Below, piece after piece: positions 7,439 to 56,013 of a stretch of DNA of 64,000 nt. A program made the position numbers and the translations under genes. The stretch is from the sequence record OR885871; one strand, 5' to 3'. The stretch comes from Escherichia phage vB_EcoM_JN03. The notes below the pieces were generated by a model that was not told the DNA's origin, made no database searches, and worked only from the letters and a program-made list of their open reading frames with translations. Every line of letters begins with the position of its first letter. Within the stretch, counting starts at the first letter, position 1.

Positions 7439-7444
7439 AAATAT

Positions 7445-7468
7445 ACCCCTCTTCGGAGGGGTCTTTAC
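7445..7468 (+). terminator. Rho-independent terminator (acccctcttcggaggggt + U-tract)
   Basis: Perfect hairpin right after the TSP-C stop. Confidence 0.6.
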
Positions 7469-7489
7469 TAGAAAAACAATGAGGTACTT

Positions 7490-37781: not shown

Positions 37782-38450
37782 ATGCAAGAGATCACTCTCT
37801 CCGAACGCACTTTACAACTGCTGGCTAACTTTGAAACCATCTGCCCCTCTATCGTTCTGGCACCTGGTAAAAAGTTGCGCACTGTTAACGATTCCAGTAC
37901 AGTTATCGCTATTGCCGACATTGACGAAGACTTCCCGTTCGAATTCCCGATTCTGGATCTGACCAAATTGCTGGCAATCCAGCGTCTGCCGAGTTTTAAA
38001 GGCGGTAAAATTGAAATGTCGGAAGACCACATTTTGCTGAAAGGTGAAAACTCCCAACTGCAATTCTGGCGTTCCGCTAAAGAACTGACTGTCGTTCCAG
38101 CAGACAGCATCGATCTTCCGTCTGTAGAATTTGAAGCAACAGTCACTCCTGAAAAAATGAAAGAGCTGACTCGCGCCTGTTCTACTCTGGGCCACAAAAC
38201 TGTACGCCTGGTGGCCAGCGGCGGTAAAACTCGTCTGGTGGGCACGACCACTACTATCGACAATTCCAACGATTACACTGTTGAGTTGGGTGAAACAACT
38301 CTGGGTGATTTTGCTATGCCTGTTGATGTGGTCAACCTGAAAATGATCGAAGGCAACTACGTGATCCGCGCCTGTGCCGAAATGCAACTGGTTAACTTCC
38401 AATCCGCAGACGGCACCATCAACTATTACGTCGGCATGCAGCTGGATTAA
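37782..38450 (+). CDS. gp45: Sliding clamp gp45 homolog
   Basis: Start at the ATG with RBS gagga; the ORF-track start is a TTG. 223 aa; N-terminus MQEITLSERTLQLLANFETI aligns with T4 gp45 MKLSKDTTALLKNFATI. Confidence 0.75.
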   Translation: MQEITLSERTLQLLANFETICPSIVLAPGKKLRTVNDSSTVIAIADIDEDFPFEFPILDLTKLLAIQRLPSFKGGKIEMSEDHILLKGENSQLQFWRSAKELTVVPADSIDLPSVEFEATVTPEKMKELTRACSTLGHKTVRLVASGGKTRLVGTTTTIDNSNDYTVELGETTLGDFAMPVDVVNLKMIEGNYVIRACAEMQLVNFQSADGTINYYVGMQLD

Positions 38451-38528: not shown

Positions 38529-39518
38529 ATGTCTAACATCACTATCGTCACAGATCAATACGCGTGGGAAAACAAATATCGTCCTGACAATCTGGATGAG
38601 ATCGTCCTCCCTTCAGACGTCCGTGCAAAAATCCATGGCTATGTTACATCAGGCAATGGAAACATCCCCTCAATGCTGTTCTATTCCCCTCAGCCTGGCA
38701 CGGGCAAGACTACTTCTGCTCTGGCTGTGTGCAACGAAATCGGTTGTATCAAACCGTTGATGATCAATGCGTCACTGGATAACAGCATTGATGTCATCCG
38801 TGACCGTGTTATTCAATACGCAACTGGCGTCAGTGTTTTCGGTGGCCGCAAAGTCGTTATCCTCGATGAAGTTGAGCGACTTTCCATGGCGGCGCAGGAA
38901 TCCCTGAAAGGCATCGTAGAGAAAGTCTCCAAAAACTGCTCCTTCATCCTGACGACTAATGCGAAACAGCGCGTTAACGAACCTCTGCGTTCCCGCTGTC
39001 GTGAAATTGATTTTATCTGGTCCGAAAAGGAAGCAGATGAAGTTAAACTCCAATTCATGCGTCGTTGCGCAACTATCCTGACAGAGGAAGGTATTCCGTA
39101 TGAAGCTGGTGTAATTGCTTCCATTGTGAAAGCATATTTCCCAGATAATCGCAAAATTATGGGAACTCTTCAGGATAATGCCACCACGTTTGGTAAAATC
39201 GATGAACGCGCTCTGGCACAGGTTAAAGCAGGGGAATTCCAAGCGCTGGTTGATTTCCTGAAAACCAATGATTGGGCTGGGATGAAGCAGTGGGTGACCG
39301 ACAACCAAAACTACATCACTGAAGATTTTTATTCCCGTTTCTTCCATTTCTGCGTTCCCCAGAACAAGGAAAAGACTCCTTTGATTCAAAAAGAGTCAAT
39401 CCCTGATCTGGTATGTGTCTGTGGTCAGTCTCAGATTGAACATCGTTCCGTCGGCGACGTCTGGTTACACGGCGTTTACTTCTTGACTAACGTCATGCTC
39501 AACATCAAATGGAAGTAA
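38529..39518 (+). CDS. gp44: Clamp loader large subunit gp44 homolog (AAA+)
   Basis: KYRPDNLDEIVLP...SPQPGTGKTT aligns with T4 gp44 KYRPSTIDECILP...SPSPGTGKTT; DEVE Walker B. Confidence 0.85.
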   Translation: MSNITIVTDQYAWENKYRPDNLDEIVLPSDVRAKIHGYVTSGNGNIPSMLFYSPQPGTGKTTSALAVCNEIGCIKPLMINASLDNSIDVIRDRVIQYATGVSVFGGRKVVILDEVERLSMAAQESLKGIVEKVSKNCSFILTTNAKQRVNEPLRSRCREIDFIWSEKEADEVKLQFMRRCATILTEEGIPYEAGVIASIVKAYFPDNRKIMGTLQDNATTFGKIDERALAQVKAGEFQALVDFLKTNDWAGMKQWVTDNQNYITEDFYSRFFHFCVPQNKEKTPLIQKESIPDLVCVCGQSQIEHRSVGDVWLHGVYFLTNVMLNIKWK

Positions 39519-39522
39519 TATT

Positions 39523-39945
39523 ATGGCCGCTCCGTCACTGTTCGATTACCTCGGTGCGTTGAATAGCACCAAAGAGAATCTGTTGATGACCGAAGACCCC
39601 GAAATCAGAAAGGCATTTGATCCTTTCATGACTCGGCGCGGCCTTGCTCAGAGTAAAGACACGCTTGTGGTTGCTGAACAAATGAACCGCTTCCATGCCA
39701 TTACTCCTTGGATGCAATGGAACCTGGCGTTTCATAGCATTCCGGCAAAACGTCGCTATGACAAGTGGTCTAAGAAGGGAGCTATGGATCCTGATGTAAA
39801 ATTGATTTCTGAGTATTATTACATCAGTCCTGAAAAGGCTTCAGAATATGTTCGATTCCTGCCGAAAGAAGTCCTGGCTGAAATCAAGGCGAAGGTCGAA
39901 CGTTCCAACAGCAACGAAAAAGCCAAACCGCGCAAGGCTAAGTAA
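39523..39945 (+). CDS. gp62: Clamp loader small subunit gp62 homolog
   Basis: SIPAKRRYDKWSKK resembles T4 gp62 AVPRGKRYGKWAKL; position after gp44. Confidence 0.7.
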   Translation: MAAPSLFDYLGALNSTKENLLMTEDPEIRKAFDPFMTRRGLAQSKDTLVVAEQMNRFHAITPWMQWNLAFHSIPAKRRYDKWSKKGAMDPDVKLISEYYYISPEKASEYVRFLPKEVLAEIKAKVERSNSNEKAKPRKAK

Positions 39946-39974: not shown

Positions 39975-40439
39975 ATGGCGCGTAATACGCTGGACATCTT
40001 AAAACTTTCAGCTGTCAACGATGAGGCCAGCATTGTTGACTGTATGGTTGAAGTTCAATTGAACCAAGACAAACCAGGGATTTTCCTGGGTATCAAGGAA
40101 ACGCTGAGTCGGATAGGGGTTAACACTCGTCAAGAGCCTAACACCTTGTATCAAACGTGCCATATTCTGCATAAATTTGGCAGATATCACATCGTGCATT
40201 TCAAGCATTTGTTCATGCTAGATGGGCACTACAACGGCTTTACGCGTGAAGATGTCCTGCGTATGAATCGGATTATACGGCTTCTGGAGCAATGGAATAT
40301 GGTTAAGATCTTGCATCCGGAACAAATAACCGAAGTGGCTGACATGTCTCGGATCAAAGTTGTAAAACATGACCAAGTTTCTGAGTGGAAATTGGTTCCA
40401 AAATACACCATTCGCCCAAGTCGGGCAAAAAGCGAATAA
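39975..40439 (+). CDS. regA: Translational repressor RegA homolog
   Basis: LYQTCHILHKFGRYHIVHFKHLF and EWKLVPKYTIRP match T4 RegA LYQSCHILQKKGLYYIVHFKEM and EWKLVPKYTIG. Has ~23 extra N-terminal residues if the RBS-supported ATG at 39975 is used. Confidence 0.85.
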   Translation: MARNTLDILKLSAVNDEASIVDCMVEVQLNQDKPGIFLGIKETLSRIGVNTRQEPNTLYQTCHILHKFGRYHIVHFKHLFMLDGHYNGFTREDVLRMNRIIRLLEQWNMVKILHPEQITEVADMSRIKVVKHDQVSEWKLVPKYTIRPSRAKSE

Positions 40440-40455
40440 CTGGAGTCGCTATATT

Positions 40456-41319
40456 ATGACAACTACATTTAATAAAAACGTGAGATTGAATTTGGCTTTT
40501 GGTAATGCGGCTGGAGATATTACAGCCCCTGACTTCGGTAAAATTCGCAATCAGGCCAAACTGGTTCTGGAAGAGACCCGCGAATTACTGGAAGCGGCTT
40601 ATTTCGATCATGACATCAAACTTGAGCTGGTGGCAACTCCAAAAGAAGACACCGATGATGTTGATATGGATAAAATCCTGAAAGCCATCATGGACGCTCA
40701 GGGTGATATCACAACTGTTAATGACGGCGTGGCCCATATCGCTGGGTTTAATGGTGATGAATGTTTACAACGCGTGTTTGCCTCTAACATGAGCAAATTT
40801 ATTCGCTCAGAAGATGAAGTCGGTCCGGCACTGGAATATTATTATTCACGCGGTTTCCCAGATGGCCAGTTACGCGTTGAAGGTGAATTCCCTCAGGCAT
40901 GCATCAAAGTGAATGAGACTGTGATGTGGAATGGCAAAGAATATCCGAAAGGAAAATTCCTGAAAAACATGGCTGTGTTCAAAGAGCCTGATTTCTCTGA
41001 TATGCTGACGAATACCCCTTCCCGTCAGATCAATGACATCGTTGCCAGCATGGCAATTGAAGAAGGTCAGGTATTTATTGATGATCTGAACGGCGTGGCG
41101 TTGGTATCTCCAAAAACGTTGGAAGTAATTCTTTCTATGGCAGTTGAAAAATCTTCTCGACCCGTAGATGTTAACGGCCAAATTGAAAGTTATGTGCCAG
41201 CGTATATCATTAACGATACCAATATGCCTAAGCTGTGTGGGGTGTGGGGTGCTAATGTTCGTGTATACGCGTGCGCACCTGTTCAAAACACTGTGACACA
41301 CCTCTCTCGCTTCGATTAA
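40456..41319 (+). CDS. MazG-like NTP pyrophosphohydrolase domain protein with C-terminal extension
   Basis: N-terminal helix with EExxE signature (AKLVLEETRELLEAAYFDHD) typical of MazG/HisE all-alpha NTP-PPases; ~190-aa uncharacterised C-terminal region. Confidence 0.5.
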   Translation: MTTTFNKNVRLNLAFGNAAGDITAPDFGKIRNQAKLVLEETRELLEAAYFDHDIKLELVATPKEDTDDVDMDKILKAIMDAQGDITTVNDGVAHIAGFNGDECLQRVFASNMSKFIRSEDEVGPALEYYYSRGFPDGQLRVEGEFPQACIKVNETVMWNGKEYPKGKFLKNMAVFKEPDFSDMLTNTPSRQINDIVASMAIEEGQVFIDDLNGVALVSPKTLEVILSMAVEKSSRPVDVNGQIESYVPAYIINDTNMPKLCGVWGANVRVYACAPVQNTVTHLSRFD

Positions 41320-41342
41320 TATAATCCGTTATTCACTAAACA

Positions 41343-41370
41343 ACAGAGGCTATAATGGCCTCTGTTTTTG
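41343..41370 (+). terminator. Terminator hairpin (acagaggctataatggcctctgt + T-run)
   Basis: Perfect 8-bp stem followed by ttttg. Confidence 0.6.
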
Positions 41371-41388: not shown

Positions 41389-42612
41389 ATGAAAGATAAA
41401 CCATATGACATCCCATATTGCGGTGTCCGTGAAACCAAAATCAAATCAGCCCATCCTATGTTAAGTTCATTCCACCGCCAGCTGGCATATGAATGGATGA
41501 GGGATCGTTATGCGATACATGTCAAGAAGGACGTGCAATGCCTTCCAGCGCCATGGACGGATAATCCGGTATTACGCCAAGTCAAGTTTTGTAACGTGCG
41601 GAGAGAGCACGATAGGCAGTCTCGAAATTTGATCAATAATATCATCCTCGATCAGGATCTCACGCTATCTGACAAAATGTTCAACTGTGTATTGTTCCGC
41701 ATGTACAACATGTGGGAACCTATACAGGCTTTGGGTGGTCCATGGACGATCGAAGAATTCGGAAACATAAATCTTGAATGGTGTCGAGATGTTCTTCAGG
41801 AATTCGAATCTAAAGGTGGCAAAGTTTTCACCAATGCGTTTAATACAGGCGGTCTGAAACAATGCCTGGCTTTCCCTGAACTAGTTGTCAACCACAAGGA
41901 GCAACGCTTTGGCGGCATGAAAGTAAAAGTCCATCGGGTTGGCGGTGTTATAGATGAAATGGATTACAAGGTTGCCAAGAAGCTGGCCGAAGATAATCCT
42001 GGTGAATACAAAATAGAAGGCTGGGAACCATACATGCCGATGCGAGTCATCCGCTCTTTGAAGGCATTCGTCAACAAACACCCTCATTACTTTGATCGCC
42101 TCAGGGAATTTAGCCGTCCCGACTCTGTTTACCAGGCGATGTATGACGACATTGAGGGGCTTGGACCATTCTTGGCATACCAGATTTGGGTTGATTTTAC
42201 ATACATCGATGAATATCCATTCAGTGAAAACCACTTCACTATCGCTGGTCCAGGTTGCCGTGCTGGTATCGATCTGTTATTTTTGGACAAGGACGGCATG
42301 ACGCATGAAGAATGCATATTCTGGGTTCGTGATCATCAAGATCAATTGTTCGCTCAGTATGGGTATAAACGTAATGAATTTTGGTCGGCAGAAGAACCGG
42401 AAGATCGTTGCATGAATGTTATGCAGCTGGAGAACATGTTCTGTGAACTTCAGAAATATACCCGCTGCGTTGAGGCGGTGATGCGCGGGGAGAAACCTCG
42501 AGGAAAGGTGGGGTATGACGGGAATGGCAGTGCGTATAAGCAACGTTGTGATGAAGTCGTCCTCAAACGTGGTTCCGTGAATCTTTTAGAACGTTTGAAG
42601 AAACCTGAATAA
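41389..42612 (+). CDS. Hypothetical protein (~407 aa), function unknown
   Basis: ATG with RBS gagagga; the ORF-track start at 41368 is a TTG inside the terminator. No confident motif. Confidence 0.5.
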   Translation: MKDKPYDIPYCGVRETKIKSAHPMLSSFHRQLAYEWMRDRYAIHVKKDVQCLPAPWTDNPVLRQVKFCNVRREHDRQSRNLINNIILDQDLTLSDKMFNCVLFRMYNMWEPIQALGGPWTIEEFGNINLEWCRDVLQEFESKGGKVFTNAFNTGGLKQCLAFPELVVNHKEQRFGGMKVKVHRVGGVIDEMDYKVAKKLAEDNPGEYKIEGWEPYMPMRVIRSLKAFVNKHPHYFDRLREFSRPDSVYQAMYDDIEGLGPFLAYQIWVDFTYIDEYPFSENHFTIAGPGCRAGIDLLFLDKDGMTHEECIFWVRDHQDQLFAQYGYKRNEFWSAEEPEDRCMNVMQLENMFCELQKYTRCVEAVMRGEKPRGKVGYDGNGSAYKQRCDEVVLKRGSVNLLERLKKPE

Positions 42613-42727
42613 AGATTCCCTTTACTTCATTCTTCAATAACTCTTTTCAACGTATTATTGACCTCACTTAAACGAAGCGCCCTGGCAAACGGGGCGCACA
42701 TTTGAACTGAAACAGGAAGACTATACC

Positions 42728-44746
42728 ATGGCAGAATTCAAACCCTTCGCAACGGCAGTTAATAACAACGTGCTGGCGATGTCCGCAACTGGTCTGTTCA
42801 TGACCAATATCGATAAAGATGCTCTTTGGGATCTGTATCTGGAATCTTTCCCTGCTGGTACCAACCCGCTCTACCGTGAGCGTACCGAGCACGACTGTAC
42901 CTGCTGTAAACAATTCATCCGTAACATCGGCGGTGTGGTCACCATCGACTCCGACCTGAACGTGATTTCCATCTGGGACAACATTGATCTGGGTAATGAA
43001 TATGACGTGGTGGCTGCGGCGCTGTCGGCGTATGTCAAACAACACGCAATCGTCGATGTTTATTTTAACGATTCTGCCAAAGTCGGCCTGTCTCACAATC
43101 ACGAATCTGGTGAAGATGGCAAAATCCGTACTTATAATCATTTCCATACCCAATTACTTGGTAGCTATGTTCTGCGTCCGGACGCAATCGCTTCGAAAAA
43201 AGGTGAAATCCGCCAGGCTATTGAATTGTTTGAACGCGGTCTGCGTGAAATTACTCTGGAATCAGCTGAAATCGTTCTGGAACTGATTGACCAGAATTCT
43301 CTGTATCGCGGCGCAGAACACAAAGCAGCAGTGAAGGGATTTGTTGAAACCAAAAAGGCATATGAACAAGTCCCCGAATCAGCCCGTTCTCTTTGGGCAT
43401 GGCATACTGGATACCGTTCAAACAATCATGTTCCACACGGCATCCGTAACACAGTTATCGGCACTCTGCTGACAGATATCAGCGAAGGCGTGGAACTGGA
43501 AAAGGCTGTTAAATCGTTTGAATCCAAAGTTGCTCCGGCGAACTACAAACGTCCGACAGCGCTGGTTTCAAAATCCATGATCGAAAACGCTCAGAAAGAA
43601 GTTATTGCTCTGGGTTTGGAAGACTCACTGGCGCGTCGTTATGCGGTTTATGATGATCTGACAATCAACAACGTTCTGTTCGCAGATCTGGCTGCTCAGA
43701 AAGCGATGGATCCGTTTGCACAGCTGGCCGCCGAAGTGAAAACTCCGACCAAGTCCCTGGAAAAAGTTGAAGAGATCAGCGTTGATGATTTCCTGAGCAA
43801 TGTTCTGCCAAAAGCGCATTCAATGGAAGTGCTTGTAGAGAATTCTCATACTAGCAACCTGATGTCCCTGGTTGCTCCGGCGAACCCAGATGCGCCTAAC
43901 TTGTTCAAGTGGAACAACGGTTTCTCCTGGTCTTACAATGGTGAAGTGGCCGATTCCATTAAAGAACGTGTAAAGGCTGCTGGCGGTAAAGTTGACGGGT
44001 ATCTGCGCGTTTCCTTGGCGTGGCACAATAACGACGACCTCGATCTGCATATGTTCAACAACATGGAGCACGTTTACTTCCGCGATCGCCGCTCTATGAC
44101 AGGTGCCCATCTGGATATCGATATGAACGGTATGGATGGTATTGATCCAAACCGCGCTCCGGTGGAAAATATCATCTTTACAGATGAAAGCAAGCTGCGC
44201 GATGGTGAATACCGTTTCGAAATCCACAACTACAATCAACGTGAAAAAATCGACGAAGGGTTTGAAGTAGAAGTAGAATACAAAGGCGCAACGCATCGTT
44301 TCAGCCATCCTGGCCTGAAAGATCAGGGGCGTATCACTGCAGTCATCCTGACTGTTAAAGACAAACAAGTTGTTGGCATTAAGTCCGAACTGGCTAATGT
44401 TGATAAGTCTAAAGAAGTTTGGGGTATCAAGACTGCGACCTTCCAGAAAGTACAGCTGGTCCTGAACTCACCAAACCATTGGGATGGCGAGCAGACAGGC
44501 AACAAGCACGTGTTCTTCATCCTGGAAGGTTGTGCTAATCCTGAAGGTACTCGTGGTTTCTACAACGAATATCTGAAGCCAGAACTGGATAAACATCGTA
44601 AGGTTTTTGAAATGTTGGGTAGTAAAATGAAAGTCCAGCCGAATGAAAACCAACTGTCCGGTCTGGGATTCTCGACGACGCAACGCAACCACGTGTTCGT
44701 CAAAGTGTCCGGCGCGTTTAACCGTACTGTAAAAGTCATTTTCTAA
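42728..44746 (+). CDS. Large hypothetical protein (672 aa), function unknown
   Basis: Start context caggaagactataccATG. Cys cluster near the N-terminus (HDCTCC). No polymerase or P-loop motifs found. Confidence 0.5.
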   Translation: MAEFKPFATAVNNNVLAMSATGLFMTNIDKDALWDLYLESFPAGTNPLYRERTEHDCTCCKQFIRNIGGVVTIDSDLNVISIWDNIDLGNEYDVVAAALSAYVKQHAIVDVYFNDSAKVGLSHNHESGEDGKIRTYNHFHTQLLGSYVLRPDAIASKKGEIRQAIELFERGLREITLESAEIVLELIDQNSLYRGAEHKAAVKGFVETKKAYEQVPESARSLWAWHTGYRSNNHVPHGIRNTVIGTLLTDISEGVELEKAVKSFESKVAPANYKRPTALVSKSMIENAQKEVIALGLEDSLARRYAVYDDLTINNVLFADLAAQKAMDPFAQLAAEVKTPTKSLEKVEEISVDDFLSNVLPKAHSMEVLVENSHTSNLMSLVAPANPDAPNLFKWNNGFSWSYNGEVADSIKERVKAAGGKVDGYLRVSLAWHNNDDLDLHMFNNMEHVYFRDRRSMTGAHLDIDMNGMDGIDPNRAPVENIIFTDESKLRDGEYRFEIHNYNQREKIDEGFEVEVEYKGATHRFSHPGLKDQGRITAVILTVKDKQVVGIKSELANVDKSKEVWGIKTATFQKVQLVLNSPNHWDGEQTGNKHVFFILEGCANPEGTRGFYNEYLKPELDKHRKVFEMLGSKMKVQPNENQLSGLGFSTTQRNHVFVKVSGAFNRTVKVIF

Positions 44747-44784: not shown

Positions 44785-45156
44785 ATGTTTGATCAAGCAA
44801 CCCGTTTAAAACTGCGTTTCAACTCTAACAAAGGTCTGCTGTCTGTTGAGCAGGTTTGGGATCTGAACCTGAATGCCCTAAACGAACTGGCGAAAGACCT
44901 CAGCCGTCAGGTGAAGGAAGCCGCCAGCGATGAAGAAGATTTCATCGGCGTGAAAAGCGCAGTCGACTCTCAGTTACAACTGCGTTTCGATATCGTGAAA
45001 GCTATCATCGGTGTTAAACTGAAAGAACGTGACGAAAGCGCAACCGCCGCCGAACGTAAAGCGAATAACCAGGCGATCATGGAACTGATCCAGCGTAAGA
45101 AACAGCAGGAACTGGAAGGTCTCTCTGTTGAAGAACTGGAAAAACTCCTGAAATAA
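44785..45156 (+). CDS. Hypothetical coiled-coil protein (123 aa)
   Basis: Charged helical sequence; terminator directly downstream. Confidence 0.45.
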   Translation: MFDQATRLKLRFNSNKGLLSVEQVWDLNLNALNELAKDLSRQVKEAASDEEDFIGVKSAVDSQLQLRFDIVKAIIGVKLKERDESATAAERKANNQAIMELIQRKKQQELEGLSVEELEKLLK

Positions 45157-45176: not shown

Positions 45177-45206
45177 CAACCCCGCCGTGTGCGGGGTTTC
45201 TTTTGG
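45177..45206 (+). terminator. Rho-independent terminator (caaccccgccgtgtgcggggtt + U-tract)
   Basis: Hairpin plus tcttttgg. Confidence 0.7.
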
Positions 45207-45215
45207 ACAAAGAAT

Positions 45216-45452
45216 ATGAAACAAATTACTAAGACAGTACAAATCACCCAATATCAAACGGATGACGGCAGAGTGTTCGATACTCTTGGTCAGGCCGAAC
45301 ATTATGAGAAGATGAAGTCCGGTATTCGCAAGGTATGCCCTTCTTGTGATGGCAAAGGTCGCGACTCTCCGTCTGGCGACGGGCGTGATATGACGACTTG
45401 TCATTATTGTGGTGGTAAAGGCTGGGTAGAAAAGAAAGAGATATGGGGTTAA
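45216..45452 (+). CDS. DnaJ-type zinc-finger mini-protein (78 aa)
   Basis: Two CxxCxGxG repeats (CPSCDGKG, CHYCGGKG). Confidence 0.5.
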   Translation: MKQITKTVQITQYQTDDGRVFDTLGQAEHYEKMKSGIRKVCPSCDGKGRDSPSGDGRDMTTCHYCGGKGWVEKKEIWG

Positions 45453-45862
45453 TGAAACCTGTCATCTGTGATTACTGCGGCCTTCCTGCCAAATACGTCA
45501 GTGGTGATGTACTCTACCCTCATCGCCCAGATCTACACAAACTGAAGTTCTGGGTATGCTCGCCATGCGACGCTCGTGTGGGTTGCCATACCCATGGGGA
45601 TGGTAGACAACCTCTGGGAAGGATGGCGAATGCCGCTCTCCGTGCTGCTAAGCAGGAAGCTCATAGGTCGTATGACCCTATCTGGAAAAGTGGGCAGAGG
45701 AGCAGGAGTGATGCTTACAGCTGGCTGGCTCATAATCTGGGGATCAAGAAGCGCGATTGCCATATCGGCTTGTTCGATATCGATATGTGCCGTAAAGTAG
45801 TCGCTGTGTGTAATCAACTAGAGGTGTCAAACGATGTCAAAGGAAATACAAGAATCTTTTGA
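45443..45862 (+). CDS. Cys-rich zinc-ribbon protein (139 aa)
   Basis: CDYC ... CSPC cysteine pairs near the N-terminus. Confidence 0.45.
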   Translation: MGLMKPVICDYCGLPAKYVSGDVLYPHRPDLHKLKFWVCSPCDARVGCHTHGDGRQPLGRMANAALRAAKQEAHRSYDPIWKSGQRSRSDAYSWLAHNLGIKKRDCHIGLFDIDMCRKVVAVCNQLEVSNDVKGNTRIF

Positions 45863-46085
45863 AAAGTTATCTCAGGTAATGACCGACTGCAACCGCCGAA
45901 ATTATTGCGATGAAGCGTATACGCAATTGAAAACCGTCGTCGAATCTGAGTTGAATAACCTTTCAACTTTTAAAGATATTCAGACCGAAGTGCTATATCT
46001 GTCGGATGAAGATTTAAGGCGTTGTCCCCGCAAGATTTACCAATTACTGGATCGTTTGGTGAAAGTGGGGGTGGATAATGGGTAA
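45834..46085 (+). CDS. Hypothetical protein (83 aa)
   Basis: Overlapping compact arrangement; no motif recognised. Confidence 0.4.
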   Translation: MSKEIQESFEKLSQVMTDCNRRNYCDEAYTQLKTVVESELNNLSTFKDIQTEVLYLSDEDLRRCPRKIYQLLDRLVKVGVDNG

Positions 46086-46803
46086 TCGTGAAGGGATTAA
46101 ACTCACACAAGAACTTCTGAAGTCACATATTGCTGAAGTGATTTATGAAGACCGTGAAGTCGGTGGCCATCGTGTCATTACATGCCACTTCAAGATGGAC
46201 AATGGCTTCGTCGTCTGGGGGAAGAATAGTTCAACTTCTATCGACCCAGCCAACTTTGATGAAGAGTTGGGTAAGAAACTGGCCTATGAAAAGACCTTCT
46301 CCCAGCTGTGGGAACTGGAAGCATATCGCGCGATGGTAGAAAGGCAGATTATCGATGTGTCCGTCAAAGATGCTAAGATCAACATTGATGAATATGTGTC
46401 AGAAAGGGAAGCGATACATGAGATGGGTGGTTCTGAATTCCTTAAGGGTAAAGGACAATCCGTCGTGTTTCGTCATCCCAAGGATCCAAGTCGGGGATTT
46501 CGAGTTGAATTTGTTCGCACCGATAATGAACGTTATAACGAACGGCGTAATGGTGAAGCAAGATCTTTGGTGGAAGCGTATCTTCGCTCATTCATGACTT
46601 CTGAAGAACTAAATTCTGAACTTGTCTTGCGTTTGGCGAAAACGTGTAATGCTGCTTCAGGGGATTATCCGTGGTGTGACCTGTCAGAAGACAAACGCCA
46701 AGCAGCTTGTGATCGTGTTAAGAAATTCTTGTTAGATCCGAAAGCCCAACCTGGTGATTCCGTGGGGGCGCTGTATAGAGCCATCGTGGTGTCCTACTTG
46801 TGA
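46078..46803 (+). CDS. Hypothetical protein (241 aa)
   Basis: No motif recognised. Confidence 0.45.
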   Translation: MGNREGIKLTQELLKSHIAEVIYEDREVGGHRVITCHFKMDNGFVVWGKNSSTSIDPANFDEELGKKLAYEKTFSQLWELEAYRAMVERQIIDVSVKDAKINIDEYVSEREAIHEMGGSEFLKGKGQSVVFRHPKDPSRGFRVEFVRTDNERYNERRNGEARSLVEAYLRSFMTSEELNSELVLRLAKTCNAASGDYPWCDLSEDKRQAACDRVKKFLLDPKAQPGDSVGALYRAIVVSYL

Positions 46804-46902: not shown

Positions 46903-47097
46903 ATGTCCGTAAAAATGAAAATTGATATGACCAAACCATTTTTGCGTTCAGGAGTTGACTCTCTTGACTCACAGTTTAAACCCAGCGAAGTTTTAATCCA
47001 ACAGATTGAGACTAATCGCGAATTCATAGAACACATGCTGGTGAAGCCGGAAGGTGAAGCCGTCCATACCACTAAAGAAGGTAATAACGATGATTGA
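46903..47097 (+). CDS. Small protein (64 aa) translationally coupled to the vWA protein
   Basis: Stop codon overlaps the downstream start (ATGATTGA arrangement). Confidence 0.45.
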   Translation: MSVKMKIDMTKPFLRSGVDSLDSQFKPSEVLIQQIETNREFIEHMLVKPEGEAVHTTKEGNNDD

Positions 47098-49306
47098 ATC
47101 ATTAACATTTAAGAATGCGGTTGCGACCGTCGCGCCGTCTAACCATGTAATCGTTGTGGATATCTCCGGTTCCATGTATCGTTCACTTCCAGAAGTCCGT
47201 AAGCATCTGAAGGAGAACCTGCCTTCCCTGGTGAAACCGGAAGATACTGTGAGCATCCTTTACTTTTCATCTCGCGGTGATTTCGGAACGGTATTTGCCG
47301 GACGTCAGATTAACAGTGCAACTGACCTCAGTGAGATCAATAATCTAATTGACCGTTTCCTGAAGCCTTCTGGTTGTACTGGTTTTGTTGAGCCGCTGAA
47401 ACTGGCTGCGGAAACTGCCATTAGCCTGAATAAACCTGGTTATGTTAACAACCTGGCATTCATGACCGACGGGTATGACAACTGCTGGCGTTCTAATGAA
47501 ATCCTGGATGCCGCTGAAGTACTGCCCAAAGCGTTTGATAACATTACCTTCATCGAATACGGTTGGTATTGTAATCGCGAACTGCTGGGGCTAATGGCAG
47601 AACGTTCTGGTGCGACCCACGTATTCGCCGAAGGACAGAATGAATATCAGACCGAATTGGAAAACGTGCTGAAAACTTCTTCACCGAAAGTTGTAGTCGA
47701 TGTTCCTCTGGTTTATACCCATGCCATTTATGTTGAAAATGGCGTGGCGACTGTTTTAGCTGTGCATCCTGATGAAGAGCACCCTATTGGCCACGTCAGC
47801 ATCCCTGAAAGCGTTTCTCAGCTGTGGGTTGTAAACCCCAACATGATCGACCAGCTGGATAATCTGGCAGACATCCAAGCGGCATACGTGCTGGCATTTT
47901 ACGGCGTGTATACCATGGACGCAGATTTGGTTTGGGCTGCGCTGAAGAAAACGGGAGATGTTCGTTTCATCAAACAATACAGCAACTGTTTCACCAAGCA
48001 GGACTATTCCAACATCAAAGTCGATCTGACCCAGGCTATCGTGGATGAAACTCTGCGCGGCGTAGATGGCATCGATTACAATATGGTTCCGGCTGAAGAC
48101 GCCACCACCATTGTTGATGTTCTGACGTATTTGGCTGAAGCAGATGTCTCTATCGTCACCAAGCATCCGCTATTCTCTTACAAGAGCATTGGGCGCGGTA
48201 CTATACAAAAAGTTGACGACACCGAAGACAAGTTGGCCGAAGAGATTGCGAATGCGACTTCTAAAGAAGAGCGTAAAGCCCTGGCGCTCAAACTGGCCGA
48301 GCACGAAGATTGGACGCCGGAATTCAATCCAGCAGATGATAAAGGGATTGTCCCGATCAGCAATTTGGTCTATAATTCAGAACGTCCTAACATCAGTGTG
48401 CAGACAGTTCAACACGGAACGGTTATTGTGCCTGAGTTTGTACAGAAGAAATATGAACTTCCTGAAGAGCTGGGAACCTGGCGTTATCGCAATTACACCA
48501 TTGTCAAGGATGGTATCATCAACCTGAAAACAATGCCTATCACTGCAGATTCTCCGATTGTTCGGGCTAAGGTGGCACAGGATTTGACTGCCATGGGTGT
48601 TCATGTGTTTGGTGGGCCGGAAGTCTTCATTGTAAATCTGGAAAGTGTCCCAATGGTTAACCGCGCCATGACAAAGAATATCAGTGCTGCTGAATTCTTT
48701 GCAGACAATGTGCGCCGTGAAGCATTGAAGGCAAAGCAAAAAGTTCTGAAATTCTACCGTGATGAACTGGTTGGCAAAGGCAACGCTACTGGTCTGGCTT
48801 CAAAATATGGCAAAGAAGCGGCTGATTTCCTGTCAGCAAACGGCATTCGCGACTATGGATTTTCACCGAAGACTTCTTCTGTAGAATCAACCGATGTCTA
48901 TATGAGTCGTGAATTGAATGTGAAAATCAAAGGCGCATCTTCACTGCCGAGCATCGCGTCTGTTATCAAAAAACAGACGGACGGTAAAAAACTGAATGTC
49001 GCTGATCAGCTGATCGCTAATGCCCTGGCCGAATACAATGCGTTTGTTAAATCGCCGATGATCACCAGCGTACCGGAAGAGACTCAGAAAAAGCTGATCG
49101 AAAGTTGGATTGGTGATGCAGCAAAAGCAGCTATCAACGAAGTTCGATCTCTGAACAAAACGCTGTCCAAGGTAGTTTATGGGATTGTTGCAGGCCATGG
49201 TTGGTTTACCGACCTGGATTTGGAAGAATCCACTATGGATGTGGAAGTTGATGGGGTGAAATACACTGTCACTGCCGAACTGGCTGAAAAAGAAGTCAAA
49301 ATCTAA
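47090..49306 (+). CDS. von Willebrand factor A (vWA) domain protein (~738 aa)
   Basis: MIDAS motif VVVDISGSM, conserved Thr region (SGCTGF) and FMTDGYDN, followed by ~550 aa of uncharacterised sequence. Start at the ATG with RBS aagaagg. Confidence 0.75.
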   Translation: MIESLTFKNAVATVAPSNHVIVVDISGSMYRSLPEVRKHLKENLPSLVKPEDTVSILYFSSRGDFGTVFAGRQINSATDLSEINNLIDRFLKPSGCTGFVEPLKLAAETAISLNKPGYVNNLAFMTDGYDNCWRSNEILDAAEVLPKAFDNITFIEYGWYCNRELLGLMAERSGATHVFAEGQNEYQTELENVLKTSSPKVVVDVPLVYTHAIYVENGVATVLAVHPDEEHPIGHVSIPESVSQLWVVNPNMIDQLDNLADIQAAYVLAFYGVYTMDADLVWAALKKTGDVRFIKQYSNCFTKQDYSNIKVDLTQAIVDETLRGVDGIDYNMVPAEDATTIVDVLTYLAEADVSIVTKHPLFSYKSIGRGTIQKVDDTEDKLAEEIANATSKEERKALALKLAEHEDWTPEFNPADDKGIVPISNLVYNSERPNISVQTVQHGTVIVPEFVQKKYELPEELGTWRYRNYTIVKDGIINLKTMPITADSPIVRAKVAQDLTAMGVHVFGGPEVFIVNLESVPMVNRAMTKNISAAEFFADNVRREALKAKQKVLKFYRDELVGKGNATGLASKYGKEAADFLSANGIRDYGFSPKTSSVESTDVYMSRELNVKIKGASSLPSIASVIKKQTDGKKLNVADQLIANALAEYNAFVKSPMITSVPEETQKKLIESWIGDAAKAAINEVRSLNKTLSKVVYGIVAGHGWFTDLDLEESTMDVEVDGVKYTVTAELAEKEVKI

Positions 49307-49338: not shown

Positions 49339-49349
49339 GAGATATGCTT

Positions 49350-49661
49350 ATGTCAAACAAACCAACTTATGTTGAAGTAATGCGTGTTCTGGCTCAGTAC
49401 GCTTGTGACAACCTGAACATGGAAACTTGGCGCAACGGGGATCACAAGGACAAGTTTGATAACATTGATGATAATATCGATGCTTTAGCGCCGTTACGGG
49501 TTAAGAATGATCTCGGCGGTGACGATCTTGACATGATTGAGCTGGTCATGGAAATCGAAGAAGAGTACGATGTAGAAATTAGTGACGAGTGGGTGGGTAA
49601 ACATGGAGATGATCCTACCCTCGGAGAGTTAGCTGAACTCGTCGTTGCCCTGCGCAAGTAA
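49350..49661 (+). CDS. Acyl carrier protein-like protein with Ser-to-Asp substitution at the phosphopantetheine site
   Basis: VKNDLGGDDLDMIELVMEIEEEYDVEISDE aligns with E. coli ACP [29 protein letters not shown]; the DSL serine is Asp (DDL). Confidence 0.7.
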   Translation: MSNKPTYVEVMRVLAQYACDNLNMETWRNGDHKDKFDNIDDNIDALAPLRVKNDLGGDDLDMIELVMEIEEEYDVEISDEWVGKHGDDPTLGELAELVVALRK

Positions 49662-55016: not shown

Positions 55017-55222
55017 TCGGGTTAATCCGTTATCTGTTCATATTCGTAATTTCAACATTCATTTTATTTTTCTTTTTCAAATACTTGAAAGAGACTAAAA
55101 TCTACCGAAGTAAACGTTGGCGTAAACGGGTGAGGGTAACTTTCCTGCTGCTGATTTCTTCGGTTACAATAACTGCACTCACATTGGGTGCTTATATTTA
55201 CATTTTTGAAGGAGTACATTGA
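55004..55222 (+). CDS. Small two-TM membrane protein (72 aa)
   Basis: Two hydrophobic helices separated by a basic loop (KRWRKRVR); stop overlaps the start of the SPFH gene. Confidence 0.5.
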   Translation: MGNMIGLIRYLFIFVISTFILFFFFKYLKETKIYRSKRWRKRVRVTFLLLISSVTITALTLGAYIYIFEGVH

Positions 55223-56013
55223 TGTTCAAGAAACTGGTATTTGGCGCAATTATGGTCCTAGCAGCAAGCATTCTTTCGGGCTGCGGCGGTGTTATCGATG
55301 AAGGAAACGTCGGTGTTCGAACCCAATGGGGTGAAGTGGACATGAACCCTGTAACCGCAGGTATCTACACCAGTTTCGTTTCAAGTGTAGATGTCTATAC
55401 GACTAAAGAAGCCGTCGTGAGTCTGACGAAAATGACGCCAAAGGCCAAAGACAACCTGACCTTGGAAGATCTGGATGTGGATGTTTATTACACACCGAAC
55501 GTCGCAAAGGTTCCGTGGTTCCATACCAAATTTGCAGGTCAGAGCGCTGAACTCGGTGACGGCACGATAGCGGTGGGATTCAACCTGGTTAAAACCGCCG
55601 CAGCATCCTCAACGATGGACGCCGTTTCCTCTTTGGATTCTATGACAATTCACACCCAACGGGCTGAGTTAGAAAAGATGATCAAGGAACGCACCCAGCA
55701 GCAATTGGAAACTGCTGCGCCTGGCATGTTCACAATCACACGTGTGTTGGTGAAAAAGGCGCTGACAGATCCTTCGATTGAGCAATCTATCCGTGATAAT
55801 GTCATGGCCGACAAACGTTTGGATACAGCAAGAAAGAACGTTGAAATTCGCGACCAAGAAGCCAGGGCGAATCAGAAACTGACGACATCTCTGACACCTG
55901 AATATTTACAACACGAATATAACATGGTGTTGCAATCTTGCGCCAACAGCGGGAAATGTACTCTGATTGTTGATGGTTCTGGCTCAAGTAAAATGCTAAA
56001 CGTCGGCAAATAA
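55222..56013 (+). CDS. SPFH/band-7 (stomatin/prohibitin-like) domain lipoprotein
   Basis: Lipoprotein signal with lipobox LSGC. VIDEGNVGVRTQWGEV start resembles SPFH domain proteins, followed by a coiled-coil-like region. Confidence 0.55.
   Translation: MFKKLVFGAIMVLAASILSGCGGVIDEGNVGVRTQWGEVDMNPVTAGIYTSFVSSVDVYTTKEAVVSLTKMTPKAKDNLTLEDLDVDVYYTPNVAKVPWFHTKFAGQSAELGDGTIAVGFNLVKTAAASSTMDAVSSLDSMTIHTQRAELEKMIKERTQQQLETAAPGMFTITRVLVKKALTDPSIEQSIRDNVMADKRLDTARKNVEIRDQEARANQKLTTSLTPEYLQHEYNMVLQSCANSGKCTLIVDGSGSSKMLNVGK

What the first reader, a model, noticed from the sequence alone, without database searches (positions are those of the whole stretch)
41389..44746. Two large uncharacterised proteins occupy the position where T4 places DNA polymerase after regA
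The gp45-gp44-gp62-regA block is intact and T4-like, but is followed by a MazG-like fusion protein, a ~407-aa protein and a 672-aa protein, none with polymerase, ligase or kinase motifs I could recognise. Each is preceded by the conserved early-gene leader (hairpin + ...gaactgaaacaggaagactataccATG). If the phage is ViI-like, DNA hypermodification enzymes are known to be interspersed among replication genes in that family, so these are candidates for nucleotide or DNA modification functions. That is a guess from context, not from motifs.
Basis: inference. Interest (0 to 1): 0.6.

Follow-up and report, generated by a model that had tools for sequence, protein, structure and literature searches.

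The report
Known hypermodification gene plus orphan cassette
In this ViI-like Salmonella phage, the 407-aa gene after regA is a published but biochemically unassigned member of the phage's thymidine-hypermodification gene set, while the 672-aa gene belongs to a widespread two-gene cassette of unknown function that is not tied to DNA modification.

Summary
The window is a Kuttervirus (ViI-like Ackermannviridae), 98.8% identical to Salmonella phage STP55. Both ORFs exist as described.

**The 407-aa protein (41389-42612).**
- It matches Pfam PF18723 HMUDK_hel (E 1.7e-83) and is the positional orthologue of ViI gp160.
- ViI gp160 is one of five ViI genes used in 2018 to reconstitute 5-NeOmdU in mixed lysates.
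- It has no P-loop, so it is not the kinase.
- The domain is fused to the 5-hmdU DNA kinase in SP10 gp186 and in one metagenomic protein. In PaMx11-like phages it lies directly after the kinase gene.
- It keeps invariant GPGC and E-N-x-x-C-E motifs, the second resembling the E-T-x-x-C catalytic motif of the amino-acid:DNA transferases.
- Its own reaction is unknown.

**The 672-aa protein (42728-44746).**
- It belongs to DUF8224 (PF26675).
- Its only structural match is a TerD-like beta-sandwich.
- It occurs in phage groups not among those reported to hypermodify thymidine, and in Micromonosporaceae chromosomes.
- A ~130-aa partner gene follows it in 48 of 50 viral lineages.
- Nothing links it to hypermodification.

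The quoted "conserved leader" occurs only once in the window.

The parts
37782..38450 (+). gp45-like sliding clamp (context)
   Evidence: ORF; annotated as sliding clamp in Mutine and as Vi01_135c. Start inferred from the 669-nt CDS in Mutine.
38529..39945 (+). gp44-like (38529-39518) and gp62-like (39523-39945) clamp-loader subunits (context)
   Evidence: ORFs; annotations.
39975..40439 (+). regA translational repressor (context)
   Evidence: Pfam PF01818 E 4.1e-35; phrog_242.
40456..41319 (+). MazG-like NTP pyrophosphatase, 287 aa. An N-terminal MazG-like part of about 184 aa is followed by a roughly 100-aa extension seen in Ackermannviridae. Possibly the dTTP/dUTP-depleting enzyme of the hypermodification pathway (inference only).
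   Evidence: phrog_2144 E 1.8e-135, no Pfam hit. tblastn matches outside Ackermannviridae cover only residues 1-184. The analogy is to the dTTPase/dUTPase gp18 of phage 15599 (PMC13458397).
41342..41366 (+). Terminator-like hairpin with T run, between the MazG-like gene and the 407-aa gene
   Evidence: Terminator scan; sequence; a terminator is annotated at the same place in Mutine.
41389..42612 (+). 407-aa orthologue of ViI gp160 (Vi01_130c). HMUDK_hel / 'aGPT-Pplase clade 1' protein of the thymidine-hypermodification gene set. Helix-hairpin-helix-like GLGPF at residue 257, invariant GPGC at 287-290, invariant E348-N349-x-x-C352-E353.
   Evidence: Pfam PF18723 E 1.7e-83, 280.7 bits. 81.6% identity to Vi01 at the syntenic position. 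The gp-number to orf-number mapping is checked. Invariant residues.
42677..42697 (+). GC-rich hairpin (GCGCCC...GGGCGC) without a T run, upstream of the 672-aa gene; the unique 27-nt leader follows at 42704-42730
   Evidence: Sequence read; the 27-mer occurs once in the window.
42728..44746 (+). 672-aa DUF8224 (PF26675) protein. Multi-domain: N-terminal alpha/beta domain with HDCxCC and NHFH motifs, a helical domain, a second alpha/beta domain, a TerD/DUF2135-like beta-sandwich (about residues 425-555) with invariant DLDLH, LDxD and ENI acidic motifs, and a conserved C-terminal domain (SPNHW, RGFYNE).
44785..45156 (+). 123-aa helical partner of DUF8224 (phrog_2018), probably co-transcribed with it
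   Evidence: A partner homologue lies directly downstream in 79 of 82 viral loci, which is 48 of 50 lineages. The same holds in Micromonosporaceae chromosomes. The window protein scores E 1.1e-42 against the partner HMM.
45178..45198 (+). Terminator-like hairpin closing the DUF8224-partner unit
   Evidence: Terminator scan: 8-bp stem, 6 GC pairs, T-rich tail; a terminator is annotated at the same place in Mutine.

Best explanation
The two genes are unrelated in function.

**(1) The 407-aa protein is the orthologue of ViI gp160.**
- It is a stand-alone HMUDK_hel protein belonging to the gene set for the ViI-type hypermodified base 5-NeOmdU.
- Shown: family membership, orthology, and recurrent fusion or adjacency to the 5-hmdU DNA kinase.
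- Inferred mechanism: it binds newly replicated DNA containing 5-hmdU, takes the kinase product 5-phosphomethyl-dU, and uses an invariant cysteine (C352 in the E-N-x-x-C-E motif, or C290 in GPGC). The chemistry at C5/C6 would be of the kind shown for the amino-acid:DNA transferases ViI gp247 and PaMx11 gp46, with a different and still unknown outcome.
- It is not the kinase, and it is not needed for serine transfer in vitro.

**(2) The 672-aa protein is a DUF8224 protein.**
- With the 123-aa gene behind it, it forms a self-contained two-gene cassette bounded by hairpins.
- Shown: the pair is conserved in many phage families and in bacterial chromosomes, independently of thymidine hypermodification.
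- Inferred, with low confidence: the large subunit is a metal-binding multi-domain protein with a TerD-like calcium-site sandwich. It acts with its small helical partner on a substrate common to very different hosts, most likely nucleic acid or nucleotide, during the early or replicative phase.
For: **Identity of the phage**
- 98.8% nucleotide identity over 4.8 kb to Kuttervirus genomes.

**407-aa protein**
- Pfam HMUDK_hel, E 1.7e-83.
- 81.6% identity to Vi01_130c (orf00160) at the same position after the regA and MazG-like genes.
- The orf-number to gp-number mapping holds for gp226, gp243 and gp247 (against Table 1 of PMC8989533).
- gp160 is listed among the genes unique to hypermodifying phages and was in the five-lysate mix that made 5-NeOmdU (PMC5889632).
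- The same domain is fused to the kinase in SP10 gp186 (HMUDK_HMUD1 + HMUDK_hel) and in metagenomic P0240.
- Its homologue is PaMx11 gp50, directly after the kinase gp49 in the modification cluster.
- Invariant residues C290, E348, N349, C352, E353 and K356 are kept across the family. All but N349 (Gly in SP10) are also kept in SP10.
- The only hhalign match between the HMUDK_hel and ADDT profiles places E348/N349/C352 on E282/T283/C287 of gp247. The corresponding residues are the metal ligands and the nucleophile in PaMx11 gp46 (PMC11472151).

**672-aa protein**
- DUF8224.
- No Pfam, NCBIfam, PADLOC or PDB sequence match.
- 558 phage records from many families.
- Partner gene downstream in 48 of 50 lineages.
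- About 40% identical chromosomal copies with the partner in more than 30 Micromonosporaceae, in unrelated and ordinary neighbourhoods.
Against: **407-aa protein**
- Purified kinase, gp247 and gp226 are the enzymes shown to carry out the 5-NeOmdU steps. The M6 homologue gp55 could be left out of lysate reactions (PMC8989533). No activity has therefore ever been shown for this family.
- The profile match to the transferase family is not significant (E 0.16, probability 0.4%).
- Foldseek against the PDB gave no significant hit. Ogg-type helix-hairpin-helix glycosylases appear only at E 0.6-2, and the solved Pplase2 structures were not in the top 50.
- The catalytic reading therefore rests on motif resemblance and gene context.

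**672-aa protein**
- The functional statement is weak. No catalytic motif is recognised.
- The N-terminal 400 residues and the C-terminal domain have no structural relative.
- The TerD Pfam model does not match.
- Apart from the partner, no neighbour is conserved.
Confidence: 0.7

Rival explanations
1. The gp160-type protein is a non-catalytic DNA-binding or targeting subunit of the 5-hmdU DNA kinase. This is the reading implied by the Pfam name 'helical domain of 5-hmdU DNA kinase'. It would set which 5-hmdU sites are phosphorylated.
For: - Fusion to the kinase in SP10 gp186 and in P0240.
- Adjacency to the kinase in PaMx11-like phages.
- Not required for the in vitro chemistry (PMC8989533).
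- Modification is described as sequence-specific (PMC5889632).
Against: - Two cysteines, two glutamates and several other polar residues are invariant down to 41-47% identity, and most also in SP10. That is more typical of an active site than of a DNA-binding scaffold.
- In ViI the gene is about 60 kb from either kinase gene.
Confidence: 0.3
2. The gp160-type protein is the missing enzyme that turns the remaining 5-hmdU (via 5-phosphomethyl-dU) into plain thymidine. It would make the same exocyclic-methylene intermediate as the transferases and then reduce it.
For: - About 60% of T positions in ViI-like virion DNA are thymidine. For the SP10/PhiW-14-type pathway the paper states that how 5-hmdU becomes thymidine is unknown (PMC5889632).
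- A glycosylase-like gene is among the only genes shared by SP10, PhiW-14, ViI and M6.
- The family is dispensable for making the hypermodified base.
- It is linked to the kinase.
- It keeps a transferase-like E-N-x-x-C-E motif.
- Borohydride was used on the methylene intermediate in the transferase study (figure legend).
Against: - No nucleotide or flavin cofactor domain is recognisable.
- SP10 has no ADDT-type gene in the 2018 table, so its HMUDK_hel domain is also the only obvious candidate for glutamate transfer.
- It is not shown that all thymidine in ViI DNA arises from 5-hmdU.
Confidence: 0.2
3. One reading: the 672-aa protein is also a nucleotide- or DNA-hypermodification enzyme.
For: - It lies next to the gp160 orthologue, near the MazG-like gene.
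- It is very strongly conserved (mean column identity 58% over 60 diverse sequences), as enzymes often are.
Against: - Its spread in the phage collection differs from that of HMUDK_hel. Bacillus, Caulobacter and Xanthomonas phages are among its top ten host genera but not among those of HMUDK_hel.
- tblastn with the gp160 orthologue found nothing within 8 kb of DUF8224 in phiCbK, CR3, Kioshi or pVa5.
- Chromosomal copies in Micromonosporaceae lie among ordinary genes.
- It is not among the genes listed as unique to hypermodifying phages.
Confidence: 0.07
4. DUF8224 and its partner form a conflict module: Ter-like superinfection exclusion or anti-defence, with the TerD-like domain sensing a metal or nucleoside-like ligand.
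For: - TerD-like fold with conserved acidic motifs.
- An autonomous two-gene cassette scattered in non-conserved chromosomal contexts.
- Ter components are known in some large phages, including phiCbK-like phages and ME3, which also carry DUF8224 (PMC7824862).
- A vWA protein and an SPFH protein lie downstream in this window.
Against: - No PADLOC match.
- 40-50% identity between copies from phages of very different hosts and from bacteria. My own judgement is that conflict proteins usually diverge faster than this.
- The vWA neighbour is confined to Ackermannviridae (cluster 10).
- The TerD Pfam model does not match.
Confidence: 0.15
5. DUF8224 and its partner are a replication or repair accessory acting on DNA or RNA ends.
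For: - In phages it usually lies in replication modules near polymerase, primase-helicase and clamp genes.
- Homologues with only the N-terminal part lie between ribonucleotide reductase and polynucleotide kinase plus ligase in PaMx74-like and Bosavirus phages.
- Ligases lie nearby in some lineages.
Against: - A ligase lies within 6 kb in only 10 of 50 lineages, at variable positions. That is roughly what a 16-kb window of a 100-150 kb genome would give by chance.
- No nuclease, ligase or helicase motif or fold was recognised.
- Chromosomal copies are not next to repair genes.
Confidence: 0.2

Closest known systems
Salmonella phage ViI gp160 (Vi01_130c, YP_004327501), called 'aG/PT-PPlase1' in Lee et al. 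2018
   Same: - Orthologue: 81.6% identity, same length, same position after the regA and MazG-like genes.
- Same Pfam family, HMUDK_hel.
   Different: Only sequence divergence within the genus. The window lacks the 135-aa zinc-ribbon ORF that many relatives carry just downstream.
C-terminal domain of Bacillus phage SP10 gp186 (5-hmdU DNA kinase fused to HMUDK_hel)
   Same: - Same Pfam domain (E 2.4e-44).
- Shares PWTD, the helix-hairpin-helix-like segment, GPGC and LE-x-x-C-E-x-x-KY.
   Different: - SP10 has the domain fused to the kinase; here it stands alone and the kinases are encoded elsewhere.
- The window protein has a roughly 55-residue beta-hairpin insertion (about residues 160-215) that SP10 and P0240 lack.
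Amino-acid:DNA transferases (Pfam ADDT, 'aGPT-Pplase2'): ViI gp247, M6 gp51, PaMx11 gp46 (PDB 8Z2M/8Z2N)
   Same: - Same pathway and the same presumed substrate, 5-phosphomethyl-dU in DNA.
- Both were described as helix-hairpin-helix glycosylase-like (PMC5889632).
- An E-[TN]-x-x-C...K motif is invariant in both families and is the one segment hhalign aligns.
   Different: - No significant sequence or profile similarity.
- No demonstrated activity.
- Dispensable for amino-acid transfer in vitro.
TerD (Klebsiella TerD 2kxt; SCO6318 2qz7) and DUF2135 beta-sandwich domains
   Same: - It carries invariant Asp/Glu-rich motifs in an arrangement reminiscent of the TerD calcium sites (my inference).
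   Different: - 9-13% identity and no match to the TerD Pfam model.
- The domain is about one fifth of a 672-aa protein. The other domains have no known relative.

Membership tests
HMUDK_hel (Pfam PF18723; 'aGPT-Pplase clade 1', ViI gp160 type), for the 407-aa protein | Match to the family profile above the curated threshold | tested here: met
   280.7 bits against a cut-off of 25, E 1.7e-83, covering profile positions 5-278 of 281.
HMUDK_hel (Pfam PF18723; 'aGPT-Pplase clade 1', ViI gp160 type), for the 407-aa protein | Orthology and synteny with ViI gp160 | tested here: met
   81.6% identity over 407 aa to Vi01_130c (orf00160), with the same flanking genes. The gp-number to orf-number mapping is verified for gp226, gp243 and gp247.
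HMUDK_hel (Pfam PF18723; 'aGPT-Pplase clade 1', ViI gp160 type), for the 407-aa protein | Genomic or physical linkage to a 5-hmdU DNA kinase | tested here: met
   - Fused to the kinase in SP10 gp186 and P0240.
- Adjacent to the kinase in PA_LZ03/PaMx11.
- The reference ViI genome encodes the kinase gp243, Pfam HMUD2 E 5.6e-169.
- The kinase genes lie outside this window.
HMUDK_hel (Pfam PF18723; 'aGPT-Pplase clade 1', ViI gp160 type), for the 407-aa protein | Helix-hairpin-helix DNA-glycosylase-like fold | tested here: inconclusive
   - AF2 model with pLDDT 87.
- In the Foldseek PDB search, Ogg-type glycosylases (3fhf, 3n0u, 3knt) and QNG1 (7ugk) take 6 of the top 17 places, but at E 0.6-2.1 and TM 0.2-0.45.
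- A helix-GLGPF-helix segment is present.
HMUDK_hel (Pfam PF18723; 'aGPT-Pplase clade 1', ViI gp160 type), for the 407-aa protein | Enzymatic activity on 5-hmdU or 5-PmdU DNA | not testable with these tools
   No activity is reported for this family in the papers read.
Amino-acid:DNA transferase (Pfam ADDT PF18724, 'aGPT-Pplase2'), considered for the 407-aa protein | Match to the family profile, or significant profile-profile similarity | tested here: not met
   No ADDT hit at E <= 0.1, whereas ViI gp247 scores E 3.2e-58. hhalign of the two family alignments gives E 0.16, probability 0.4%.
Amino-acid:DNA transferase (Pfam ADDT PF18724, 'aGPT-Pplase2'), considered for the 407-aa protein | Catalytic cysteine with the nearby metal-binding Glu/Thr (E243, T244, C247 in PaMx11 gp46) | tested here: inconclusive
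   - An invariant E348-N349-x-x-C352-E353 motif exists.
- It is the segment aligned to E282-T283...C287 of gp247.
- The alignment is not significant, and no structural superposition could be made.
5-hmdU DNA kinase (P-loop; Pfam HMUDK_HMUD1 / HMUD2), considered for the 407-aa protein | Walker A P-loop and a match to the kinase profile | tested here: not met
   No [AG]xxxxGK[ST] motif. No kinase-family hit.
DUF8224 (Pfam PF26675), for the 672-aa protein | Match to the family profile | tested here: met
   - The model is absent from the local Pfam copy.
- All full-length homologues at 48-97% identity carry the precomputed PF26675 hit, named DUF8224.
- phrog_1735 matches end to end.
DUF8224 (Pfam PF26675), for the 672-aa protein | Small partner gene of about 130 aa immediately downstream (a feature found here, not part of the Pfam definition) | tested here: met
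   - The window gene at 44785-45156 scores E 1.1e-42 against the partner HMM.
- A partner is present in 79 of 82 viral loci, which is 48 of 50 lineages.
- A partner ORF was called in 21 of 31 Micromonosporaceae loci at the stricter GC3 filter. In another 10 loci an antisense ORF took the same slot.
TerD family (tellurite-resistance TerD/TerE/TerZ), considered for the 672-aa protein | TerD beta-sandwich fold | tested here: met
   [not shown]
TerD family (tellurite-resistance TerD/TerE/TerZ), considered for the 672-aa protein | Sequence membership (TerD Pfam profile) | tested here: not met
   No TerD hit in any of 60 members even at E <= 1. Only weak DUF2135 hits, in 7 members, best E 0.018.
T4-type replication enzyme at this position (DNA polymerase or ligase), considered for both proteins | Polymerase or ligase profile or motifs | tested here: not met
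   No such Pfam, NCBIfam or PDB match. The single KxDG in the 672-aa protein is not conserved in the family. The ViI polymerase gene is elsewhere in the genome.

The most novel reading that the evidence does not exclude
The gp160-type HMUDK_hel protein may be the long-sought enzyme that converts the non-hypermodified fraction of 5-hmdU in replicated phage DNA into ordinary thymidine. It would act on the kinase product through a cysteine-dependent exocyclic-methylene intermediate. Separately, DUF8224 and its partner may be a two-protein system with a new biochemical activity, shared by lytic phages of several families (Ackermannviridae, Herelleviridae, Schitoviridae and others) and by actinomycete and myxobacterial chromosomes.
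Probability: 0.2. Interest if true: 0.7.

Novelty: already known. Interest (0 to 1): 0.35.

Why it matters
**The 407-aa gene.**
- It confirms that this phage carries the ViI-type thymidine-hypermodification gene set, and that one member of that set lies at this position after regA.
- The practical value is a clear annotation. Most database records call it 'hypothetical'. One calls it an ABC transporter, and a related family carries the label 'terminase small subunit'.
- It also exposes an open point: this family is linked to the 5-hmdU DNA kinase in every lineage examined here, yet no reaction has been assigned to it.
- The route from 5-hmdU to thymidine is still unexplained, so the family is a concrete and testable candidate.

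**The 672-aa gene.**
- The result removes it from the list of modification candidates.
- It replaces that idea with a sharper description: a strongly conserved two-gene cassette of unknown function, found in thousands of phage and bacterial sequences.
- That combination makes it a reasonable target for structural or genetic work.

Tried and rejected
- **DNA ligase as a conserved neighbour of DUF8224.** The idea came from PaMx74-like and Bosavirus phages and from one 210-kb contig. A ligase HMM found a ligase within 6 kb in only 10 of 50 lineages, at positions from -2.9 to +5.7 kb. That is no better than chance for a 16-kb window. Dropped.
- **A link between DUF8224 and vWA or MoxR proteins.** The 750-aa vWA protein is a neighbour only in Ackermannviridae (cluster 10). 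AAA+/MoxR-like genes follow the pair in Kioshi and pVa5, but they are not a recurrent cluster.
- **Known defence or anti-defence families.** No PADLOC hit for any of six proteins.
- **Sequence searches of the 672-aa protein and its family profile against PDB chains.** Only noise.
- **Foldseek of the 672-aa model against the PDB.** Only antibody-like beta-sandwich noise.
- **AFDB library.** Not available.
- **KxDG at residue 421 of the 672-aa protein as a nucleotidyl-transferase motif.** The lysine is not conserved in the family.
- **The 407-aa protein as the kinase itself,** which is the naive reading of the Pfam name. Rejected: no P-loop and no kinase-domain hit. The ViI kinases are gp67 and gp243.
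- **Sequence-level paralogy of gp160 with gp247.** BLAST- and profile-level comparisons are not significant.
- **The Iyer et al. 2013 paper that first predicted these families.** Not held in the library.

Full report
**What the window is.** The 4.8 kb around the finding is 98.8% identical to Salmonella phage STP55 and 96-98% identical to many other Kuttervirus genomes (ViI-like Ackermannviridae). Upstream the window carries tail, head and packaging genes and then a replication block.

**Check of the observation.**
- The ORFs exist as stated: 41389-42612 (407 aa from the ATG) and 42728-44746 (672 aa).
- They follow the sliding clamp, the two clamp-loader subunits and regA. regA matches Pfam Translat_reg at E 4e-35, and the annotations of Mutine and Vi01 agree.
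- Next comes a MazG-like gene whose real start is 40456 (287 aa).
- None of the three proteins has a Walker A motif.
- In ViI the DNA polymerase is a PolA-type gene about 57 kb away, beside the kinase gp243 and the transferase gp247. This phage therefore does not keep T4's regA-gene 43 order (the T4 order is from my own knowledge).
- The 'conserved early-gene leader' is not confirmed. The quoted 27-mer occurs once in 64 kb even with three mismatches allowed.
- The 407-aa gene is instead preceded by a terminator-like hairpin with a T run at 41342-41366. The 672-aa gene is preceded by a GC hairpin at 42677-42697.
- A terminator-like hairpin at 45178-45198 closes the unit formed by the 672-aa and 123-aa genes. 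Mutine has a terminator annotated at the same place.

**The 407-aa protein: identity.**
- It matches Pfam PF18723, 'HMUDK_hel, 5-hmdU DNA kinase helical domain', at E 1.7e-83 over nearly the whole profile. It also matches phrog_2396.
- In Vi01 the 81.6%-identical gene at the same position is Vi01_130c, noted as orf00160.
- The gp numbers of Lee et al. are these orf numbers. orf00226, orf00243 and orf00247 carry the accessions that Table 1 of PMC8989533 gives for gp226, gp243 and gp247.
- The protein is therefore the orthologue of ViI gp160. [quoted passage not shown]
- It is not the kinase. It has no P-loop and no kinase-domain hit. The ViI kinases are gp67 and gp243, and gp243 scores E 5.6e-169 against Pfam HMUD2.

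**The 407-aa protein: links to the kinase.** The Pfam name reflects domain fusions.
- SP10 gp186 is HMUDK_HMUD1 (kinase) followed by HMUDK_hel.
- The metagenomic protein P0240 has the two domains in the reverse order.
- In the PaMx11-like phage PA_LZ03 the homologue is PaMx11 gp50. It lies directly after the kinase gp49, in the cluster that also holds gp46, gp47, gp48 and the thymidylate-synthase-like gene.

**The 407-aa protein: what it might do.**
- The later biochemical work assigns phosphorylation to the kinases, serine transfer to gp247 and decarboxylation to gp226. It shows that M6 gp55 can be omitted (PMC8989533). No reaction has been assigned to the gp160 family.
- In an alignment of 46 family members down to 41% identity, the invariant positions include a helix-GLGPF-helix segment, G287-P-G-C290, and E348-N349-x-x-C352-E353-x-x-K356. 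SP10 gp186 keeps GPGC and LE-x-x-C-E-x-x-KY.
- In the solved transferase PaMx11 gp46, Glu243 and Thr244 hold the metal and Cys247 attacks C6 (PMC11472151). The gp247 family has the invariant E282-T283 and a nearly invariant C287.
- The only hhalign match between the two family profiles aligns exactly these motifs. However, it is not significant (E 0.16, probability 0.4%).
- The AF2 model is confident (pLDDT 87, pTM 0.84). Foldseek against the PDB gave no significant hit. Ogg-type helix-hairpin-helix glycosylases and QNG1 recur among the top 17 hits at E 0.6-2.1.
- My reading is that this is probably an active, cysteine-dependent enzyme working on the kinase product. This rests on motif resemblance and gene context, not on proven homology.
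- Two alternatives remain open. It may be a non-catalytic targeting subunit of the kinase. Or it may be the unknown enzyme that turns the remaining 5-hmdU into thymidine. About 40% of T is replaced by 5-NeOmdU in ViI-like DNA, and the route to thymidine is stated to be unknown.

**The MazG-like neighbour.**
- It matches phrog_2144 strongly and no Pfam model.
- Outside Ackermannviridae only its first ~184 residues find relatives, so it is a MazG-like domain with a lineage-specific C-terminal extension.
[quoted passage not shown] An analogous role here is an inference I could not test.

**The 672-aa protein: identity and structure.**
- It has no hit in the local Pfam copy, NCBIfam, PADLOC or PDB sequences.
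- Its homologues carry the precomputed family PF26675, which is DUF8224. PHROGs lists it as phrog_1735, function unknown.
- The family is very large.
- It is strongly conserved, with mean column identity of 58% over 60 diverse members.
- The AF2 model has pLDDT 84 but pTM 0.52, so the domains are confident and their arrangement is not.
- Foldseek finds nothing.
- Seven of 60 members give weak DUF2135 hits and none hits TerD.
- From the secondary structure I place the sandwich at about residues 425-555. Its invariant acidic motifs are DLDLH (437), LDxD (462) and ENI (480). That they form a TerD-like calcium site is my inference.
- The N-terminal ~400 residues carry nearly invariant HDCxCC and NHFH motifs. 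The C-terminal ~110 residues carry SPNHW and RGFYNE. Neither part has a recognisable relative.

**The 672-aa protein: distribution and context.**
- tblastn finds DUF8224 in 558 phage records. These include Vequintavirinae (CR3, CR9), phiCbK-like Caulobacter phages, Bastillevirinae Bacillus phages, an N4-like Vibrio phage, Microcystis phage LMM01, Cellulophaga phage phi17:2 and Acinetobacter phage ME3.
- This differs from the spread of HMUDK_hel (405 records). Vibrio, Microbacterium and Pseudomonas phages are prominent there, and Bacillus, Caulobacter and Xanthomonas phages are not among its top ten host genera.
- I fetched 80 viral-contig loci, called ORFs and clustered the neighbours.
- Only one neighbour is conserved: a ~130-aa gene a median of 26 nt downstream on the same strand.
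- With a profile built from that cluster, 79 of 82 loci carry it, which is 48 of 50 lineages at 70% identity. The window's 123-aa ORF scores E 1.1e-42.
- The vWA protein downstream in this window is a neighbour only in Ackermannviridae.
- A ligase lies within 6 kb in 10 of 50 lineages at variable positions, which is not above chance.
- Shorter relatives that match only the N-terminal ~400 residues lie between ribonucleotide reductase and polynucleotide kinase plus ligase in PaMx74-like and Bosavirus phages.

**The 672-aa protein: bacterial copies.**
- A scan of one genome per species found 158 relatives.
- Full-length copies at about 40% identity occur in more than 30 Micromonosporaceae, some on contigs of several megabases. 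Genera include Actinoplanes, Micromonospora, Salinispora, Dactylosporangium and Catellatospora.
- Copies also occur in Myxococcota, Sericytochromatia and a Bradyrhizobium.
- These copies again have the partner gene, at E about 1e-43 against the phage-derived profile.
- Their other neighbours are not shared between species.
- Where tested, those neighbours are ordinary: a ClpC-like chaperone, a MacB/HlyD efflux pair, a histidine kinase, a LacI regulator, a sugar-binding protein and a GDSL lipase.
- DUF8224 plus its partner therefore behaves as an autonomous two-gene cassette shared by phages and bacteria.

**Verdict.**
- It is unsupported for the 672-aa gene, whose distribution argues against a role in thymidine hypermodification.
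- As a discovery the finding is ordinary: the phage is a close relative of sequenced genomes and both families are already catalogued.
- Two open points give it moderate interest. The kinase-linked HMUDK_hel family has no assigned reaction. The DUF8224-partner cassette is large, strongly conserved and has no known function.

Noticed in passing
window 42613-42727; L001 (Mutine) 10223-10630: Many Kuttervirus genomes (Mutine, kage, STP-4, S117 and others) carry an extra 135-aa ORF with weak zinc-ribbon hits between the gp160 orthologue and the DUF8224 gene. In those phages the gp160 orthologue has a slightly different 3' end. The window lacks this insertion. One Dickeya phage record annotates an 'endonuclease' at that spot, so it may be a mobile gene.
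   Followed up: partly
L002 (Vi01) 7337-9356: In the Vi01 reference genome the DUF8224 gene is annotated as two CDS (Vi01_129c of 491 aa and Vi01_128c of 183 aa, both noted orf00158). This implies a frameshift or a sequencing error. The window's copy is intact at 672 aa.
   Followed up: no
L136-L172 (Micromonosporaceae chromosomes), gene at about 6001-8000 of each locus: Full-length DUF8224 genes with the ~130-aa partner occur in more than 30 Micromonosporaceae species, and in Myxococcota, Sericytochromatia and Bradyrhizobium. They lie in non-conserved, ordinary chromosomal neighbourhoods. This is unexpected for a gene otherwise typical of large lytic phages.
   Followed up: partly
L011 (SP10) 17383-19296; window 41389-42612: SP10 gp186, the kinase plus HMUDK_hel fusion, is annotated 'terminase small subunit' in RefSeq. 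The window protein gives a weak hit to phrog_800, which carries that label. Klebsiella virus vB_KpnM-20 annotates the gp160 orthologue as a 'phospholipid-lipopolysaccharide ABC transporter'. These look like propagated annotation errors.
   Followed up: partly
hits H19/H68 (MN871475.1) and H72 (OR844942.1): Records named 'Pseudomonas phage Pa-sanjiao' and 'Enterococcus phage Efm 3-10' are 98-99.6% identical to Salmonella Kuttervirus in this region. They are probably mislabelled or contaminated records.
   Followed up: no
window 47054-49306, 49344-49661, 55219-56013: Downstream lie a 750-aa protein with an N-terminal vWA domain (phrog_2426), an acyl-carrier-protein-like gene (PP-binding, E 3.7e-07) and an SPFH/Band 7 protein. 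An SPFH gene and a MoxR-like ATPase also lie near the DUF8224 pair in the N4-like Vibrio phage pVa5. Whether this is more than coincidence was not resolved.
   Followed up: partly
window 45189-46803: A run of small zinc-finger genes follows the cassette: an 87-aa DnaJ-type CxxCxGxG protein, a DUF3268 zinc-finger protein and an N4 gp49-like protein. DUF3268-like and gp49-like ORFs recur downstream of DUF8224 in a few other lineages (clusters 21 and 9).
   Followed up: no
L008 (PaMx74) 4890-6503; L009 (FMYAK-P1) 4839-6488: Proteins of 537-549 aa match only the N-terminal ~400 residues of DUF8224 (about 25% identity). They lie between ribonucleotide reductase and a small ORF, polynucleotide kinase/phosphatase and DNA ligase in PaMx74-like and Bosavirus phages. 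Similar partial matches occur in jumbo phages (Moabite, Centimanus).
   Followed up: partly
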